A stretch of 64,000 bases of DNA. Origin: SAR202 cluster bacterium. GTDB lineage: Bacteria; Chloroflexota; Dehalococcoidia; Lucifugimonadales; VGZR01. Numbering within the stretch: position 1 is the stretch's first letter; each line of letters opens with the position of its first letter. A program made the position numbers and the translations under genes. The notes below the pieces were generated by a model, which was not told the origin of the DNA, made no database searches, and worked only from the letters and a program-made list of their open reading frames with translations. The DNA is taken from NCBI GenBank assembly GCA_016872515.1, contig VGZR01000008.1:4112-68111 (forward strand). The letters are read 5' to 3'. Positions 17,287-23,359 of this stretch are shown one piece after another.

Positions 17287-17353
17287 CTTGCTGCATCATA
17301 TAGTTGCGCTAACGTGTCGTAGGCGCCAACTCAAGAGTTTACACTAAGACCCT

Positions 17354-17827
17354 ATGTGCCCACCCCGAATGACCAAGTCACCCATGAACATCAGGACAGC
17401 CGTGGCCATCCTCGCCTGGCTTCCCGTGCTGCTGTGGATGGCCGCCATCTTCATCATGTCCAGCTTCCCGGGCGTCGAGGTGGAGCGGAGGGCATCCAGG
17501 ATCGAGGAGTTGGTGCCGGTGGCCGGCAAGGCCGTTGTCCATCCGGCGACGTTCCATGTGGCCGTCTACGCCCTCCTCGCTGCCTTTACTTTCGTTTGGG
17601 CACGTTTCCAAAAGGGCCCCGTGCTAAGTTCCGGTTTGACCGCGGTGGTAGTCACCATCGTCTATGGCGGCACCGACGAGCTCCACCAGGCCTTCGTCCC
17701 TGGCCGCTCGTGCTCGGCGGCGGACGTCGGCTACGACGCTATGGGTGCCCTGCTCGGCGTGCTCGCCTGCTGGCTGGCTGTTCGAGCGGCGGCATGGCGG
17801 GCGCGCGCAAAGAATACCCCGCACTGA
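17354..17827 (+). CDS. VanZ-family membrane protein
   Basis: 157 aa, 4 TM segments, GGTDELHQAFVPGRSCSAADVGYDAMGA. The start may be one of the downstream ATGs (17369 or 17384). Confidence 0.7.
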   Translation: MCPPRMTKSPMNIRTAVAILAWLPVLLWMAAIFIMSSFPGVEVERRASRIEELVPVAGKAVVHPATFHVAVYALLAAFTFVWARFQKGPVLSSGLTAVVVTIVYGGTDELHQAFVPGRSCSAADVGYDAMGALLGVLACWLAVRAAAWRARAKNTPH

Positions 17828-17842
17828 AAAACCCTTGTCCTA

Positions 17843-17851
17843 TGCTATAAT
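17843..17851 (+). promoter_or_regulatory. Extended -10 element upstream of tRNA-Ala
   Basis: TGcTATAAT, ending 20 nt before the tRNA 5' end. No convincing -35. Confidence 0.4.
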
Positions 17852-17871
17852 CGGGACGAGACGGCGAGCGT

Positions 17872-17947
17872 GGGGATATAGCTCAACTGGGAGAGCACGG
17901 CGTTCGCAATGCCGGGGTTGGGGGTTCGACTCCCCCTATCTCCACCA
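17872..17947 (+). tRNA. tRNA-Ala (anticodon CGC), CCA encoded
   Basis: Hand-folded cloverleaf. Acceptor GGGGATA/TATCTCC with the G3:U70 Ala identity pair. D arm GCTC-AACTGGGA-GAGC. Anticodon arm CGGCG-TTCGCAA-TGCCG. T arm GGGGG-TTCGACT-CCCCC. Discriminator A plus CCA. Confidence 0.93.
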
Positions 17948-18002
17948 ACCTCTTCCCTCTTCCACGCCAGGCTCACCGCAATCCACCACCCGAGGGCCGT
18001 AT

Positions 18003-18230
18003 TTGCCCAACCGAGTCCTCATCTACACCCACCCGGAATGCACCTACTCCGCGGCGCTCAAGGACGACCTGAACACCGCCGGGACGAAGTACGAAGAGGT
18101 TGACCTTGCCCTGCACCCAGAGGCCTGGGCCGAGGTCGAGCAGTTCACCGGCGGAGACCGCATCACCCCTGTCATGCTCGAAGACGGCAAGGTCACCGTC
18201 GGCTACTACGGGGTTGGGTGAACCTTCTGA
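18003..18230 (+). CDS. Glutaredoxin-like small protein, candidate C-terminal U-x-x-stop selenoprotein (TGA 18219-18221 read as Sec)
   Basis: TTG 18003 with GAGGG 8 nt upstream. (M)PNRVLIYTHPECTYSAALKDDLNTAGTKYEEVDL...DRITPVMLEDGKVTVGYYGVG-TGA-ACC-TTC-TGA. Without recoding the CDS ends at 18221. Confidence 0.6.
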
Positions 18231-18233
18231 CCC

Positions 18234-18252
18234 GCGGGGCCGTCGGCCCCGC
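18234..18252 (+). promoter_or_regulatory. SECIS-like hairpin after TGA 18219
   Basis: GCGGGGCC (18234-18241), loop GUC, GGCCCCGC (18245-18252). Starts 12 nt after the TGA. No U-tract follows. Confidence 0.5.
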
Positions 18253-18277
18253 CGTAACCCAAGTCCAGGAGGACGAT

Positions 18278-18988
18278 GTGGTGAAACAAGTTACCGGCAA
18301 GGTCACCGTTGGCGAACCCGCCCCGGAGTTCACCCTGCCTGCCCTCGAAGGCAGAACGGTGCGCCTCGCAGACTACCGCGGCAAACGGCTCATTCTGTTC
18401 ATGTGGGCTTCGTGGTGAGCCTGCAGAGGCCAGTTGCCAGGTTGGCAGCAGTTCTACCAGAAGCACAGGGCCAGCGGCATCGAACTCCTCTCGGTCGCCC
18501 TGGACGCCCATGGCGCGGGCAGGGCCGAGCCATACCTGCGGCAGGCGAAGGCCGAGTTCGTGACCGTCGTGGACGAGCAGAACCTGCTGGGAGACCTCTA
18601 CGGCTTCAAGGCCATCCCCAACGGCTTCCTGATCGACGAGCAGGGCATCCTCAGGTACGGGGAACTGGGCACCTTCGACGTCCGCAAGCCAAAGACCCGA
18701 GCGCTGCTCGACCAGTGGGTCGCGGGCAAGGGTACCGGGGTGGCGCGATCAGCGGAGGCGCCCGGCAATCGCCACGCCCAGGCCAACGCCCACTTCCGTG
18801 CTGGAGAGGCTCTCTACCGCCAGGGCAAGGTGGACGAGGCCGTCGCCGAGTGGCGCAGGGCCGTCGCCCTGGAACCCGACAACTACATCATTCGTAAGCA
18901 GATTTGGGCCGTCCAGAACCCGGACAAGTTCTACGACGGCGACGTGGACTACGACTGGCAGGACGAACAACTGAAGAAGGGGTTATAG
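18278..18988 (+). CDS. TlpA/redoxin-like thiol-disulfide oxidoreductase with C-terminal TPR, candidate selenoprotein (TGA 18416-18418 read as Sec)
   Basis: Track ORFs 18218-18418 and 18434-18988 share a frame and are separated only by the TGA. Read-through gives ...RLILFMWASW-U-ACRGQLPGWQQFYQKHRASGIELLSVALD... Start GTG 18278 lies 5 nt after AGGAGG (18267-18272). Confidence 0.7.
18433..18449 (+). promoter_or_regulatory. SECIS-like hairpin after TGA 18416
   Basis: GTTGCCA (18433-18439), loop GGT, TGGCAGC (18443-18449). Seven bp including one G-U. Starts 14 nt after the TGA. Confidence 0.5.
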
Positions 18989-18989
18989 C

Positions 18990-19775
18990 GTGAAGGTCCA
19001 GGACCTGTTCAACATGACGGGCCGCGTGGCGGTCGTCACCGGCGGCGGGACCCATCTGGGCAAGGCGATGGCCGAGTCGCTGGCCGAACTGGGCGCCACC
19101 GTCGTCATCGCCAGCCGCCGCAAGGAGTTGTGCGAGGAGGTCGCCTCCGAGTTCCGCCAGCGGGGCCTGAAGTGCGAGGCGACGGGCTGCGACGTGACCG
19201 TCGAGGCCCAGGTCAACGACCTAGTGGACGCCATCGTGAAGCGCCATGGCCGCCTCGACGCCTTCATCTGCAACGCCGGCGGCAGCGTCCCCGCCGAAAA
19301 CACCCCCGACAGCTCGGTGGACGCCTTCTGGAAGACGGTCGAGATGAACGTCCTGAGCACCTTCATCTGCGTCCAGGCCGCCGCCAGGGTCATGGTCAAG
19401 CAGGGCCACGGACGCATCGTCACCGTCGGCTCCATCCACGGCTCCATGGGCACCGATAAGCGGATGTACACCCCCGGCCACAAGCGCTCGTCCATCGGCT
19501 ACTTCGCCGCCAAGGGCGGCGTCGTCAACCTGACCCGCGACCTGGCCGCAGAGCTCGGCGAGTACGGCATCACCGTCAACTGCCTCAGCCCGGGCCAGAT
19601 ACCCAAGCCGGGCGTCAACCCCGTCCTCTTGGAGCGGCTGGAGCAGCGCACGCCCCTGCGGCGCAACGGCGTCCCCGAAGACCTCAAGGGCGCCATCGCC
19701 CTCCTTGCCTCTCCGGCAGGCGCCTGGATCAGCGGCCAAGACCTGCGCGTGGACGGCGCCTGGAGCGTCTGGTAG
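18990..19775 (+). CDS. SDR-family oxidoreductase
   Basis: GRVAVVTGGGTHLGKAM (TGxxxxG) ...NAGG...YFAAKGG (YxxxK), 261 aa. Confidence 0.88.
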   Translation: MKVQDLFNMTGRVAVVTGGGTHLGKAMAESLAELGATVVIASRRKELCEEVASEFRQRGLKCEATGCDVTVEAQVNDLVDAIVKRHGRLDAFICNAGGSVPAENTPDSSVDAFWKTVEMNVLSTFICVQAAARVMVKQGHGRIVTVGSIHGSMGTDKRMYTPGHKRSSIGYFAAKGGVVNLTRDLAAELGEYGITVNCLSPGQIPKPGVNPVLLERLEQRTPLRRNGVPEDLKGAIALLASPAGAWISGQDLRVDGAWSVW

Positions 19776-20004
19776 CAGGGTGAGGCTCCTTCGGGCAGAA
19801 GACCACTGACCGGCGGGTTGACCAGGGGTAGCGGCCGTTTCAGGAGCGGCTTCCCTCCTCGCAGCACCTGCTGACACTCGCGATGGCAGCGGCAAGCGAG
19901 GAAACCCCTGCATCTACCGTCATCCCACAGCTACCGTGATTCTCCCTTTCTCCCTTGAACTAGGTCCTGAAGGGACCAAGGCAGAAACGTTTTCTCACGA
20001 ACGG

Positions 20005-20173
20005 ATGGCGGTATGACGCCATGTATTCTCCCTTGAGGAGTTTTCTATGAACTTGGCCCAGAACACCACCACGGACGCGATGCTCCCTTTCTACCTTGAA
20101 ATGGTAGGAAAAGGGAGAAATGTTTACGGCTCTCCGCTTGCTGTACGAAGCGGCGTATTCTCCCTTGAGGAGT
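20005..20173. repeat. Two hairpin + 19-nt motif units, plus a long bulged hairpin, in a non-coding convergent spacer
   Basis: Unit 1: ATGGCG-GTATGA-CGCCAT (20005-20022) followed directly by GTATTCTCCCTTGAGGAGT (20023-20041). Unit 2: CCGCTT-N8-AAGCGG (20134-20153) followed 1 nt later by the identical 19-mer (20155-20173). Between them lies a 13-bp bulged hairpin (20083-20117). Confidence 0.6.
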
Positions 20174-20232
20174 CCCAGGGATCCGCGCAGGCTTGAAGCA
20201 TCTGGCGAGGGGCTGTGCCGCAAGCCTCACCC

Positions 20233-20282
20233 CTTCAGGCCGAGCAGGCCGGCCTGAAGTCCCTCCCCCGTGTTCGGGGGAG
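20233..20282 (-). terminator. Two tandem hairpins downstream of the 2-hydroxyacid dehydrogenase gene
   Basis: CTCCCCCG-TGTT-CGGGGGAG (20263-20282) and CTTCAGGCC-N9-GGCCTGAAG (20233-20259), just past the stop at 20288. No clear U-tract. Confidence 0.45.
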
Positions 20283-20287
20283 AGCCC

Positions 20288-21385: not shown

Positions 21386-23359
21386 GTGATTTTGATTAGA
21401 AGGTTTTGGGCCGTCGTCCTGGCGGTCGTTTTCTTCATCCTGCTGGTAGGCACACTCGTTCTGTTCCGGGTTATGCAGACTGCCTTGGAGCCGGACTTTT
21501 ACAAAGAACAGCTCGTCAAAGCCGACATCTATAACTTCGCCCTCAACGACCTCCTGACCTCCTCGATCAACGACGCCCGCAACCTCCCGCCCGAAAAGTT
21601 CCCGGGCTCCCAAAAGTCCAACGCCCTCGTCGCCTCCGGCCTGACCACCGAACAGATCACCGCTTCCATGAGCCGCGCTGTGCCCGCCGACTGGCTGCAG
21701 AGCGAGGCGGAGATGGTCGTGGACCAGCTGGGTGTCTATATCGTTGGCAAGCGCGACGAGTTCGAACTGAAGCCACAGTTAGGCGACCGGGCCGCTATCA
21801 TCGTGGACGAGGCCCAGAGCCTGCTGCGTCAGTCCAACACCTATGACCTCGTCTTCACCGAGTTCGTTGACCCGTTCGTGGAGGAGGCCGCGGGTGGCCA
21901 GCTTCTCCTGGGGATACGGGCCAGCCCCGAGCGGCTTTCCGAGGCGGTGCGCGCGGTGTTTCCGCCCGAGTGGATATCGGCCCAAGTTGACGTACTGATA
22001 GACGGGGCATCTCCTTACCTCACCGGCCAGCAGCCAAGCTTCTCCATCACCATCAACCTCTCGGACCGAGTGCCGCTCCTGTTGGAAGAGGTGAAGGGCA
22101 TCCTCCGCGAGTCCGACGCCTACGACCTTCTCTACACACAGGTCGTCGAGCCGCGCGTCACCGAGACCCTCCAGAGCCAGGTCGCCTTGCCCGCAGGCAT
22201 CACCCTCACCCGCGAGGAGATCCTGGACGCTCTGCGGCGCGTCGCTCCGCCGGAGTGGGTAGAGGCGCAGGTGGAGGCGTTCATAGGTTCGACAGGCGGC
22301 TACCTGGTTGGTACGTCAGACACCATCGGCATCCAGGTGGACCTGCGTGAGAACAAGCAGGAGGCAGCCGTCGTTCTGGGGGAGATTGCGGACCGCAGGC
22401 TGGAGGGAATCGTCTCCGGCCTGCCCGTTTGCACGGCCCAGGAGTCTCTCGACCTAGCCGCCGATATCGCAGCGGGCCGGTTCACGGAGATGCCCTCGTG
22501 CCGGCCCTCTTTCCTGACTCCTGAGACGTTGAAGCCTCTCCTCGACCTCGACCTCAGCGGCGCCATCAGCGCCACGGTGCTCTCGAATATCCCCGACACC
22601 GTCGAGTTCAACGAGTCGTTCCTCCGGCAGGCTGTCGCCTCGGACGGCGGCGGCGCAGAAGACGCGCTGGAACGCCTCGACCAGGTACGCGACTGGACGA
22701 AGAACGGCATCACCTTTACCGACAACGACCTGCGCGAGCGGCTCGGCGACAACGCCGCACGACTTGATGACCTGACTTCCTTCATGGCCGACTCGTTCAC
22801 TTATACCCATGAGGACTTCCGCGAGGACCTGAGCGCCCAGAGCGGCACCGAGGCTCTCGATACTATTGACACCGTGCGGGATGCGCTCAAGCGGGTGCGC
22901 AGCCTGCTGTGGCTCGCCTACCTCGTCCTGGCGCTTCTGCTGGTGGCCATCGGCTTCCTCGGAGGGCGGAACTGGCGCAGCCGGGTCATGTGGGCGGCGG
23001 CGCCTGTCATTATCTCCGGCCTAATCCTCGTCATAGTCTCCGGCCCGGTGTACAGCGGCGTGGTCGGTGGCAGGATTGACACCGCCCGTACCAACGCCAT
23101 CTCCGATCTCGACCAAGCGGACGGCTTCTATAACACTGAGGTGTTGCTCATCAATAAGGGGTTCGAGGTCGTTGAGAACGTCCCTGGCGAGTTCGTGGGC
23201 GGCATCCTCACCTCGGGCGTGTGGTTGCTGGTCATCGGCATCGCCGTCATCCTCGGCGCCGCTTTCTGGCCGCAGCTACGGCAGCGCGTGGCGGGGATGC
23301 GTGGTGGCGGCGCCGCAGAGCCGCCTGCCACAAGCCCGCCCTCACCGCCGAAACAGTAG
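21386..23359 (+). CDS. Hypothetical membrane protein with three tandem ~95-aa repeats
   Basis: 657 aa. N-terminal TM helix, then repeats marked by AVPADWLQSEAEMVVDQLGVYIVG / VFPPEWISAQVDVLIDGASPYLTG / VAPPEWVEAQVEAFIGSTGGYLVG. C-terminal TM cluster and Pro-rich tail. Confidence 0.7.
   Translation: MILIRRFWAVVLAVVFFILLVGTLVLFRVMQTALEPDFYKEQLVKADIYNFALNDLLTSSINDARNLPPEKFPGSQKSNALVASGLTTEQITASMSRAVPADWLQSEAEMVVDQLGVYIVGKRDEFELKPQLGDRAAIIVDEAQSLLRQSNTYDLVFTEFVDPFVEEAAGGQLLLGIRASPERLSEAVRAVFPPEWISAQVDVLIDGASPYLTGQQPSFSITINLSDRVPLLLEEVKGILRESDAYDLLYTQVVEPRVTETLQSQVALPAGITLTREEILDALRRVAPPEWVEAQVEAFIGSTGGYLVGTSDTIGIQVDLRENKQEAAVVLGEIADRRLEGIVSGLPVCTAQESLDLAADIAAGRFTEMPSCRPSFLTPETLKPLLDLDLSGAISATVLSNIPDTVEFNESFLRQAVASDGGGAEDALERLDQVRDWTKNGITFTDNDLRERLGDNAARLDDLTSFMADSFTYTHEDFREDLSAQSGTEALDTIDTVRDALKRVRSLLWLAYLVLALLLVAIGFLGGRNWRSRVMWAAAPVIISGLILVIVSGPVYSGVVGGRIDTARTNAISDLDQADGFYNTEVLLINKGFEVVENVPGEFVGGILTSGVWLLVIGIAVILGAAFWPQLRQRVAGMRGGGAAEPPATSPPSPPKQ

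What the first reader, a model, noticed from the sequence alone, without database searches (positions are those of the whole stretch)
18003..18252. Glutaredoxin-like ORF with a TGA-ACC-TTC-TGA tail: candidate C-terminal U-x-x-stop selenoprotein
The small ORF (...RVLIYTHPECTYSAALKDDL...DRITPVMLEDGKVTVGYYGVG) reaches TGA at 18219-18221. The frame then continues ACC TTC to a second TGA at 18228-18230, giving ...GVG-U-T-F-stop if the first TGA encodes Sec. Twelve nt later is a perfect 8-bp stem GCGGGGCC/GGCCCCGC (18234-18252) with a GUC loop and no U-tract, so it looks like a bacterial SECIS rather than a terminator. The N-terminal motif is monothiol (Cys13-x-x-Ser), leaving a penultimate-region Sec as the natural redox partner (compare the C-terminal GCUG of mammalian thioredoxin reductase). 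I recall a curated family named Uxx-star glutaredoxin-like (seleno)protein with exactly this architecture, but I cannot verify membership here. Gene callers will stop at 18221 and miss the Sec.
Basis: partly seen in the sequence, partly recalled or inferred. Interest (0 to 1): 0.75.

Follow-up and report, generated by a model that had tools for sequence, protein, structure and literature searches.

The report
Known selenocysteine-tailed glutaredoxin-like gene
This small gene really does encode a glutaredoxin-like protein whose apparent stop codon is read as selenocysteine three residues before the true end, but it belongs to an already curated family (UXX-star family 2), so it is a correct call and not a discovery.

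Summary
With U written as C the protein scores 113 bits against NCBIfam NF041211, "UXX-star (seleno)protein family 2" (cut-off 100), matching the whole profile. Among 95 related genes from Dehalococcoidia/Chloroflexota genomes, 59 have TGA at this position. That TGA is followed by [S/T/A/N][F/Y/W/M] and then any of the three stop codons. The other 36 have TGC or TGT there. All 59 TGA forms carry a hairpin after the true stop, with a GU loop 21-27 nt from the UGA; 7 of its 8 pairs covary. The Cys forms lack it. All 59 Sec forms have a CxxS active site, whereas the Cys forms have CxxC or CxxT, which points to a Cys13-Sec73 redox pair. The next gene (18278-18988) is a second selenoprotein, TlpA/ResA-like with WASW-U-A-C, and this pairing recurs in 31 of the 59 Sec loci. 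No selA, selB, selD or tRNA-Sec lies in the roughly 84 kb examined, so the Sec machinery of this genome remains unverified. Verdict: real, correctly interpreted and already known; gene callers truncate it at 72 aa.

The parts
17992..17996 (+). Shine-Dalgarno-like GAGGG, 6 nt before the TTG start
   Evidence: Read from the sequence. The JGI gene call on the near-identical contig starts at the same TTG.
18003..18230 (+). Full coding sequence of the UXX-star family 2 glutaredoxin-like selenoprotein: 75 aa, M1...C13-T-Y-S16...G70-V-G72-U73-T74-F75, then stop
   Evidence: NF041211 113 bits against a cut-off of 100, covering profile positions 1-71 of 71; NF041212 94.9 against 66. PF00462 Glutaredoxin. 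Cys13 aligns with the first Cys of CPYC in PDB 2khp.
18219..18221 (+). UGA read as selenocysteine (Sec73)
   Evidence: This column is TGA in 59 relatives and TGC/TGT in 36. The two codons after it vary synonymously: AGC/AGT, ACC/ACG/ACA, TTC/TTT.
18228..18230 (+). True stop codon (TGA here; among the 59 Sec forms, this window included, TAG 34, TAA 15, TGA 10)
18234..18252 (+). Bacterial SECIS hairpin lying wholly in the 3' untranslated region: 8-bp stem and GUC loop, with the loop G 24 nt from the U of the UGA and a 12-nt spacer
   Evidence: MFE -18.1 kcal/mol. Present in 59 of 59 TGA forms and absent from the Cys forms. 87.7% of cells paired, 7 of 8 pairs with compensatory change, 0 of 500 shuffles as good. 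The same helix came from an unanchored MAFFT/RNAalifold run. It is the only strong hit of the covariance model in the window, 25.1 bits.
18267..18272 (+). AGGAGG Shine-Dalgarno of the downstream gene, 14 nt after the hairpin
   Evidence: Read from the sequence.
18278..18988 (+). Operon partner: a TlpA/ResA-like (AhpC-TSA fold plus TPR) selenoprotein, with in-frame UGA at 18416-18418 in FMWASW-U-AC-R and its own hairpin at 18433-18449
   Evidence: NF041054 'ResA-like WAxxUGC' 163.5 bits, below its 300 cut-off. PF00578 and TPR. The same TGA-containing gene lies directly downstream in 31 of the 59 Sec-form loci (this window counted in both numbers); in 3 Cys-form loci too. Conserved hairpin CUGCC-NGUNU-GGCAG.

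Best explanation
The ORF 18003-18230 is a member of UXX-star (seleno)protein family 2, a 75-residue glutaredoxin-fold protein. Shown by comparison: the UGA at 18219 is a Sec codon, and the hairpin at 18234-18252 beyond the real stop codon has the form and conservation of a bacterial SECIS. Inferred from the E. coli SelB/fdhF model of Sec insertion: when the ribosome has the UGA in its A site, the hairpin sits just outside the mRNA entry channel, 12 nt downstream. Its GU-containing apical loop then holds SelB-GTP-Sec-tRNA(Sec), which delivers Sec. Thr and Phe are added and translation ends at the second UGA, which lies too close to the hairpin to be recoded. Inferred for the protein: Cys13 is the nucleophilic cysteine of the glutaredoxin active site, and the resolving cysteine is replaced by Ser16. 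Sec73, on a glycine-rich C-terminal tail (G-x-x-G-x-G-U), folds back to form a selenenylsulfide with Cys13. This would make a Cys/Sec redox pair analogous to the C-terminal GCUG tail of thioredoxin reductase. The likely client or partner is the TlpA/ResA-like U-x-C selenoprotein encoded 48 nt downstream. Without selenium or SelB the product would be the 72-aa truncated form that gene callers report.
For: Family membership: NF041211 113 bits against 100 over the full profile, and NF041212 94.9 against 66. The closest named relative, P0002 at 71% identity, is called 'UXX-star (seleno)protein family 2' by NCBI. The family is listed in the 2026 review PMC13188914 with motif GxGU. Sec/Cys pair: 59 TGA forms against 36 TGC/TGT forms at the same column, and Cys-tailed proteins in the 1.8-billion-protein library. 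The tail is translated: [S/T/A/N][F/Y/W/M] is kept through synonymous codon changes and all three stop codons follow it. SECIS: a hairpin with a GU loop 21-27 nt from the UGA in 59 of 59 Sec forms. Pairing scores run from 5 to 9 in 58 of them (3 in L034, whose loop has 4 nt) against 0-6 in the Cys forms, and mean MFE is -15.2 against -8.5 kcal/mol. Covariation is seen in 7 of 8 pairs with 0 of 500 shuffles as good, and it was recovered without my anchoring. The hairpin starts 0-10 nt after the true stop in 55 of 59. It is not a terminator: there is no U-tract and the next gene's Shine-Dalgarno is 14 nt away. TGA is an ordinary stop elsewhere in the window, in 9 of 27 Pfam-supported genes, so the genetic code is standard. 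Redox pair: CxxS in 59 of 59 Sec forms against CxxC (24) or CxxT (12) in the Cys forms, and Cys13/Ser16 align with the C/C of CPYC. A second in-frame TGA gene with a similar hairpin lies next door. Dehalococcoidia genomes carry up to 46-49 selenoproteins (PMC13326102).
Against: No selA, selB, selD or tRNA-Sec was found in the window or in about 20 kb of extra flank. The Sec trait of this genome is therefore inferred, not shown. There is no direct evidence for Sec incorporation or for a Cys13-Sec73 bond. The single-sequence AlphaFold model was poor (pLDDT 62, tail below 50), and no coordinates were available to measure distances. The review cited for the family suggests the Sec might instead be a metal ligand. 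Counts over relatives are not phylogenetically independent.
Confidence: 0.88

Rival explanations
1. Sec73 is real, but it acts as a soft-metal ligand (Cu, Hg or similar) together with Cys13. The protein would then be a metallochaperone or detoxification component, not a redox carrier.
For: [quoted passage not shown] A CopA-like heavy-metal P-type ATPase lies upstream in 14 of 83 related loci.
Against: There is no metal-handling gene next to it in this window; the neighbours are VanZ, OTCase and a short-chain dehydrogenase. The most frequent neighbour is a TlpA/ResA-like thiol-disulfide oxidoreductase, in 31 of 59 Sec loci. Swapping the resolving Cys for Ser exactly when Sec appears is what a redox pair predicts.
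Confidence: 0.15
2. TGA 18219 is simply the stop codon of a 72-aa monothiol glutaredoxin-like protein. The hairpin is a transcript-stabilising or attenuating stem-loop, and the ACC-TTC-TGA tail is coincidence.
For: Gene callers produce this model. The hairpin alone is only marginally more stable than shuffles, z = -1.85. No Sec machinery was seen in the DNA available.
Against: 58 further genes keep TGA plus two or more sense codons with conserved amino-acid classes and synonymous variation. 36 homologues have Cys at that column. The hairpin is strictly linked to TGA and absent from the Cys forms. No terminator signature was found. The curated selenoprotein model matches through the tail.
Confidence: 0.03
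3. The gene is a decaying pseudogene in which a Cys codon (TGC/TGT) mutated to TGA.
For: A single transversion converts TGC or TGT to TGA.
Against: The TGA form is the majority state across dozens of species-level genomes. It always comes with a dedicated hairpin and with the CxxS change. The ORF is otherwise intact and conserved.
Confidence: 0.01

Closest known systems
UXX-star (seleno)protein family 2 (NCBIfam NF041211; attributed to Haft & Tolstoy 2025, mSystems, by the review PMC13188914)
   Same: Glutaredoxin fold, about 72-75 aa, G-x-G-U motif, two residues and then stop. The score is above the equivalog cut-off over the full profile. The nearest named member is 71% identical and from a Chloroflexi MAG.
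   Different: Nothing defining differs. This copy is an unnamed, truncated gene call in JGI metagenomes. I could not read the primary paper, so I do not know whether the SECIS consensus, the CxxS/Sec linkage or the TlpA-like neighbour reported here are already described there.
[quoted passage not shown]
   Same: A small Grx-like protein with a Sec three residues from the C-terminus.
   Different: The review lists family 1 with two Sec residues and a UxxT active site. Here the active site is CxxS with a single Sec, and the score is 44.7 against a cut-off of 72.
Mammalian thioredoxin reductase C-terminal GCUG tail (my own knowledge)
   Same: A penultimate-region Sec on a flexible glycine-rich C-terminal tail that shuttles electrons, with a SECIS beyond the stop codon.
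   Different: It is a flavoenzyme in which the Cys-Sec pair is adjacent within the tail, and it uses a eukaryotic kink-turn SECIS with SBP2/EFSec. Here the partner Cys is the Grx active-site Cys 60 residues away, and the SECIS is a simple bacterial SelB-type hairpin.
E. coli fdhF-type bacterial SECIS (my own knowledge; consensus of Zhang & Gladyshev's bSECISearch)
   Same: A stem-loop starting about 11 nt after the UGA with G and U in the apical loop. Here the spacer is 12 nt and the loop is GUC.
   Different: The classical element lies inside the coding region; the review states this as the bacterial rule. Here it lies after the true stop in 55 of 59 genes and overlaps the stop by 1 nt in 4. 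No Rfam model matches it.
[quoted passage not shown]
   Same: AhpC-TSA/TlpA fold with W-A-x-x-U-x-C. It is listed as a known selenoprotein family in PMC13188914.
   Different: It scores 163.5 against a cut-off of 300. The motif is U-A-C, not U-G-C. The form is shorter (236 aa), with a TPR C-terminus and no signal peptide evident.

Membership tests
NCBIfam NF041211 UXX-star (seleno)protein family 2 | Profile score at or above the curated cut-off (100 bits) over the full length | tested here: met
   113 bits covering profile 1-71 of 71 with U written as C, and 104.3 bits for the 72-aa truncated form.
NCBIfam NF041211 UXX-star (seleno)protein family 2 | Glutaredoxin/thioredoxin-fold domain | tested here: met
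   PF00462 scores 34.7 bits against a cut-off of 22.9. The best PDB matches are glutaredoxins and NrdH. A beta-alpha-beta-alpha-beta-beta pattern appears in a low-confidence model.
NCBIfam NF041211 UXX-star (seleno)protein family 2 | G-x-G-U motif followed by two residues and a stop ('Uxx-star') | tested here: met
   G70-V-G72-U73-T74-F75-stop. The same layout occurs in 51 of 59 TGA forms, with 3-4 residues after the U in the other 8.
NCBIfam NF041211 UXX-star (seleno)protein family 2 | Sec aligned with Cys in non-selenoprotein homologues | tested here: met
   36 TGC/TGT forms among the fetched loci, and C-tailed proteins P0004, P0012, P0014, P0036, P0048 and others.
Bacterial selenoprotein gene (general) | SECIS hairpin at the right distance downstream of the UGA, conserved in structure | tested here: met
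   Loop G lies 21-27 nt from the UGA in 59 of 59. 7 of 8 pairs covary, with 0 of 500 shuffles as good. The hairpin is absent from the Cys forms.
Bacterial selenoprotein gene (general) | selA, selB, selD and tRNA-Sec in the same genome | tested here: inconclusive
   None were found in the 64-kb window or in about 20 kb of extra flank, and the rest of the genome is not available. Indirect support comes from a second in-frame TGA gene next door and from Dehalococcoidia being selenoprotein-rich.
Bacterial selenoprotein gene (general) | Physical incorporation of selenium | not testable with these tools
   Needs 75Se labelling or mass spectrometry.
Classical dithiol glutaredoxin / NrdH / mycoredoxin | CxxC active site and a score above the family cut-offs | tested here: not met
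   The active site is C-T-Y-S. TIGR02196 scores 36 against 88.55, TIGR02200 31.4 against 89.5, and TIGR02194 25.3 against 85.75.
Rho-independent terminator | GC-rich stem followed by a U-tract | tested here: not met
   No terminator-like site in 17300-19300. The hairpin is followed by CGTAACCCAAG.
NCBIfam NF041054 ResA-like WAxxUGC (neighbouring gene 18278-18988) | Profile score at or above 300 bits | tested here: not met
   163.5 bits, covering profile positions 74-201 of 354. The motif is present as W-A-S-W-U-A-C, so it is a relative and not an equivalog member.

The most novel reading that the evidence does not exclude
The Uxx-star glutaredoxin-like protein and the TlpA/ResA-like U-x-C protein form a dedicated cytoplasmic two-selenoprotein relay in Dehalococcoidia. 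They would be co-transcribed, and both recoded through hairpins that share a GCC-(N)GU-GGC apical motif. The first SECIS lies in the 3' UTR, 14 nt from the next gene's ribosome-binding site. SelB occupancy there could link selenium supply to translation of the partner. I could not check whether the pairing is already reported in Haft & Tolstoy 2025.
Probability: 0.12. Interest if true: 0.45.

Novelty: already known. Interest (0 to 1): 0.22.

Why it matters
The main value is for annotation. The gene is called as a 72-aa 'glutaredoxin' in metagenome pipelines, and its neighbour is split into two ORFs (66 aa and 184 aa), so two selenoproteins are missed. It also gives a clean example, supported by covariation, of a bacterial SECIS lying entirely after the stop codon. 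That runs against the usual statement that bacterial SECIS elements sit inside coding regions. The 25-nt consensus (GGGGCC-GUN-GGCCCC, with the loop G 21-27 nt from the UGA) could be used to find further C-terminal selenoproteins in Chloroflexota. The strict CxxS/Sec linkage gives a testable hypothesis for the family's still unknown chemistry.

Tried and rejected
- **Rfam.** Scans of the region at E up to 10 and of the whole window found only tRNA-Ala, with no SECIS family match.
- **Terminator scan.** Nothing was found.
- **Covariance model.** The model built from the hairpins (R1) found no second element of this type in the window. The next best hit scored 13.9 bits at E = 0.45. A pattern scan for TGA followed by such a hairpin found only 18219 in a long ORF.
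- **Sec machinery.** I searched with ARAGORN and with Pfam on the remaining large ORFs. I also used the precomputed Pfam tables for the window and for flanks beyond both ends. None was found.
- **Failed or wasted look-ups.** One look-up failed because the start codon did not match a called gene. One Pfam call was rejected for a wrong frame.
- **Primary paper.** Haft & Tolstoy 2025 is not held. Searching for selenoprotein plus SAR202 gave nothing.
- **Structure.** The single-sequence AlphaFold model was too poor (pLDDT 62) for a fold search. No coordinates are returned, so the Cys13-Sec73 distance could not be measured.
- **Neighbour clustering.** The one other large cluster (72 loci, 229 minus-strand ORFs, median start inside the gene itself) looks like antisense shadow ORFs and chaining. 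I set it aside unannotated, so a real neighbour family inside it is not excluded.
- **Shadow ORFs.** ORFs 277-903 and 916-1638 have no Pfam hit because they lie on the strand opposite dnaE.

Full report
**Observation.**
- A TTG at 18003 is preceded by GAGGG and opens a frame that reads MPNRVLIYTHPECTYS...KVTVGYYGVG.
- The frame reaches TGA at 18219-18221, continues ACC TTC, and ends at a second TGA at 18228-18230.
- Three bases later comes GCGGGGCC-GTC-GGCCCCGC (18234-18252), with no T-run after it.
- The terminator scan finds nothing in 17300-19300.
- On its own this is not statistically striking. The hairpin folds at -18.1 kcal/mol with z = -1.85, and 10 of 200 shuffles of this GC-rich stretch fold as well.

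**Family assignment.** With the first TGA written as Cys, the 75-residue protein passes two curated NCBIfam models.
- NF041211, "UXX-star (seleno)protein family 2" (equivalog): 113 bits against a cut-off of 100, aligned over all 71 profile positions including the tail.
- NF041212, "Uxx-star family glutaredoxin-like (seleno)protein": 94.9 bits against 66.
- Classical glutaredoxin, NrdH and mycoredoxin models all fall far below their cut-offs.
- Pfam sees a Glutaredoxin domain.
- The best solved structures are ordinary glutaredoxins. In those alignments Cys13 and Ser16 sit opposite the two cysteines of CPYC.
- The nearest named protein (P0002, 71% identical, Chloroflexi MAG) is already called "UXX-star (seleno)protein family 2" by NCBI. 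A 99%-identical JGI protein (P0001) is an unnamed 72-aa truncated call.
- A 2026 review lists the family with motif GxGU and credits Haft & Tolstoy 2025. I could not obtain that primary paper.

**Comparative test of the Sec codon.** A scan of one genome per species found 322 relatives. The best 80 are all from Dehalococcoidia, Chloroflexota or SAR202 MAGs. Together with the window and two metagenome loci, these gave 95 genes in total.
- 59 genes have TGA at the column of the window's 18219, and 36 have TGC or TGT.
- In the TGA forms the next codon encodes S, T, A or N, through AGC, AGT, ACC, ACG, ACA, GCC, GCG, GCA, AAC and AAT.
- The codon after that encodes F, Y, W or M, through TTC, TTT, TAC, TGG and ATG.
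- A stop follows after two codons in 51 genes and after three or four in 8. The true stop is TAG in 34, TAA in 15 and TGA in 10.
- Synonymous variation with conserved residue classes shows that the tail is translated.
- The large protein library also holds many homologues ending ...GxGC-x-x(-x-x), alongside many that end abruptly at ...GxG.
- TGA ends 9 of 27 Pfam-supported genes in the window, so the genetic code is standard.

**The hairpin.** Every one of the 59 TGA forms has a stem-loop with a GU in the apical loop.
- The loop G lies 21-27 nt from the U of the UGA. The consensus is GGGGCC-GUN-GGCCCC, and in some genes the top pair is open, giving a CGUGN loop.
- The stem starts 8-19 nt after the UGA. 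It starts 0-10 nt after the true stop in 55 genes and overlaps the stop by one base in 4. The element therefore lies in the 3' untranslated region.
- On an ungapped 25-column alignment, 87.7% of cells are paired, against at most 55% when the partner is slid. 7 of 8 pairs show compensatory changes, and none of 500 shuffles reaches the observed values.
- My anchoring favoured paired registers, so I repeated the test with plain MAFFT plus RNAalifold on UGA-to-+47 segments. The same helix emerged, with compensatory change in 5 of 6 pairs.
- The 36 Cys forms lack the element. Their pairing scores are 0-6 against 5-9 for 58 of the 59 Sec forms; the one low scorer (L034, 3) has a 4-nt GGUC loop that the fixed register misses. 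Mean MFE is -8.5 against -15.2 kcal/mol.
- This is what a SelB-type bacterial SECIS predicts and what a terminator or stabiliser does not. No Rfam model covers it.

**Active-site linkage.** All 59 Sec forms have C-x-x-S at the glutaredoxin active site. The Cys forms have C-x-x-C (24 genes, with tails C[S/T/M]FY[D/E] or CN[Y/F][G/S/N]) or C-G-Y-T (12 genes, with tail CVS). So the resolving cysteine is absent exactly where Sec is present. It remains an inference, for three reasons:
- The only structure model was of low confidence.
- No distances could be measured.
- The review floats a metal-ligand role.

**Context.**
- The next gene (18278-18988, AGGAGG at 18267-18272) crosses an in-frame TGA at 18416-18418 within FMWASW-U-AC-R.
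- It has an AhpC-TSA/TlpA fold plus TPR repeats. It is related to, but scores below the cut-off of, "ResA-like WAxxUGC".
- The review lists UGC-containing TlpA proteins as known selenoproteins.
- The same TGA-containing gene follows the Uxx-star gene in 31 of the 59 Sec-form loci; both numbers include the window. It also follows in 3 Cys-form loci.
- It carries its own hairpin, CUGCC-NGUNU-GGCAG, about 25 nt after its UGA.
- Pipelines split it into 66-aa and 184-aa ORFs.
- A second recoded gene next door is indirect evidence that this organism decodes Sec.
- Dehalococcoidia genomes with 46-49 selenoproteins are on record.

**What could not be shown.** No tRNA-Sec, selA, selB or selD occurs in the window or in about 20 kb of flanking contig.

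**Verdict.** The gene is a routine member of an already curated selenoprotein family. Three things are added here: a covariation-backed consensus for the post-stop SECIS, the strict CxxS/Sec linkage, and the frequent pairing with a TlpA-like U-x-C selenoprotein. Any of these may already be in the primary paper that I could not read.

Noticed in passing
window 18278-18988 (TGA at 18416-18418; hairpin 18433-18449): A second selenoprotein gene lies directly downstream. It is TlpA/ResA-like with an AhpC-TSA fold plus TPR repeats, has the motif W-A-S-W-U-A-C, and is split by gene callers into 66-aa and 184-aa ORFs. The arrangement is conserved in 34 related loci.
   Followed up: partly
window 17824-17947: A promoter-like site (CTGAAA-16 nt-TATAAT with an upstream TG) lies at 17824-17851. 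It is followed by tRNA-Ala(CGC) at 17872-17947, only 55 nt before the selenoprotein start. No terminator lies between them, so the tRNA and the two selenoprotein genes may share a transcript.
   Followed up: no
window 19776-20287: A 512-nt intergenic stretch holds two direct-repeat families spaced 132-141 nt apart: 19935-19959 with 20076-20100, and 20008-20041 with 20140-20173. This amounts to a tandem duplication of a unit of about 135 nt carrying TTCTCCCTTGA(GGAGT). There is no Rfam match, and pipelines call a 49-aa ORF here.
   Followed up: partly
L016 443 and 730; also L021, L035, L036, L042, L043, L048, L050, L057, L058, L069, L074: Genomes with the Cys form carry two tandem paralogues about 280 nt apart. 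One has CGYT with tail C-V-S-stop, and the other has C[T/E]IC with tail C-[S/T/M]-F-Y-[D/E]-stop. In L016 and L021 they precede a Sec-containing TlpA-like gene.
   Followed up: no
L077 about 3.2 kb upstream of the Uxx-star gene, and 13 other loci: A CopA-like heavy-metal P-type ATPase with HMA domains (GMTCAAC) lies upstream in 14 of 83 related loci. This is the only contextual hint in favour of a metal-related role.
   Followed up: no
protein P0058 (library representative, 75 aa): This protein begins like the Grx-like family (...DLERLTGG) and ends ...GRKVALFMWASW, which is the start of the TlpA-like protein up to its TGA. It is either a natural fusion or a frameshifted or chimeric call.
   Followed up: no
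window 21386-23359: A 657-aa ORF has no Pfam match. It is conserved in position on two related metagenome contigs (L001, L002).
   Followed up: no
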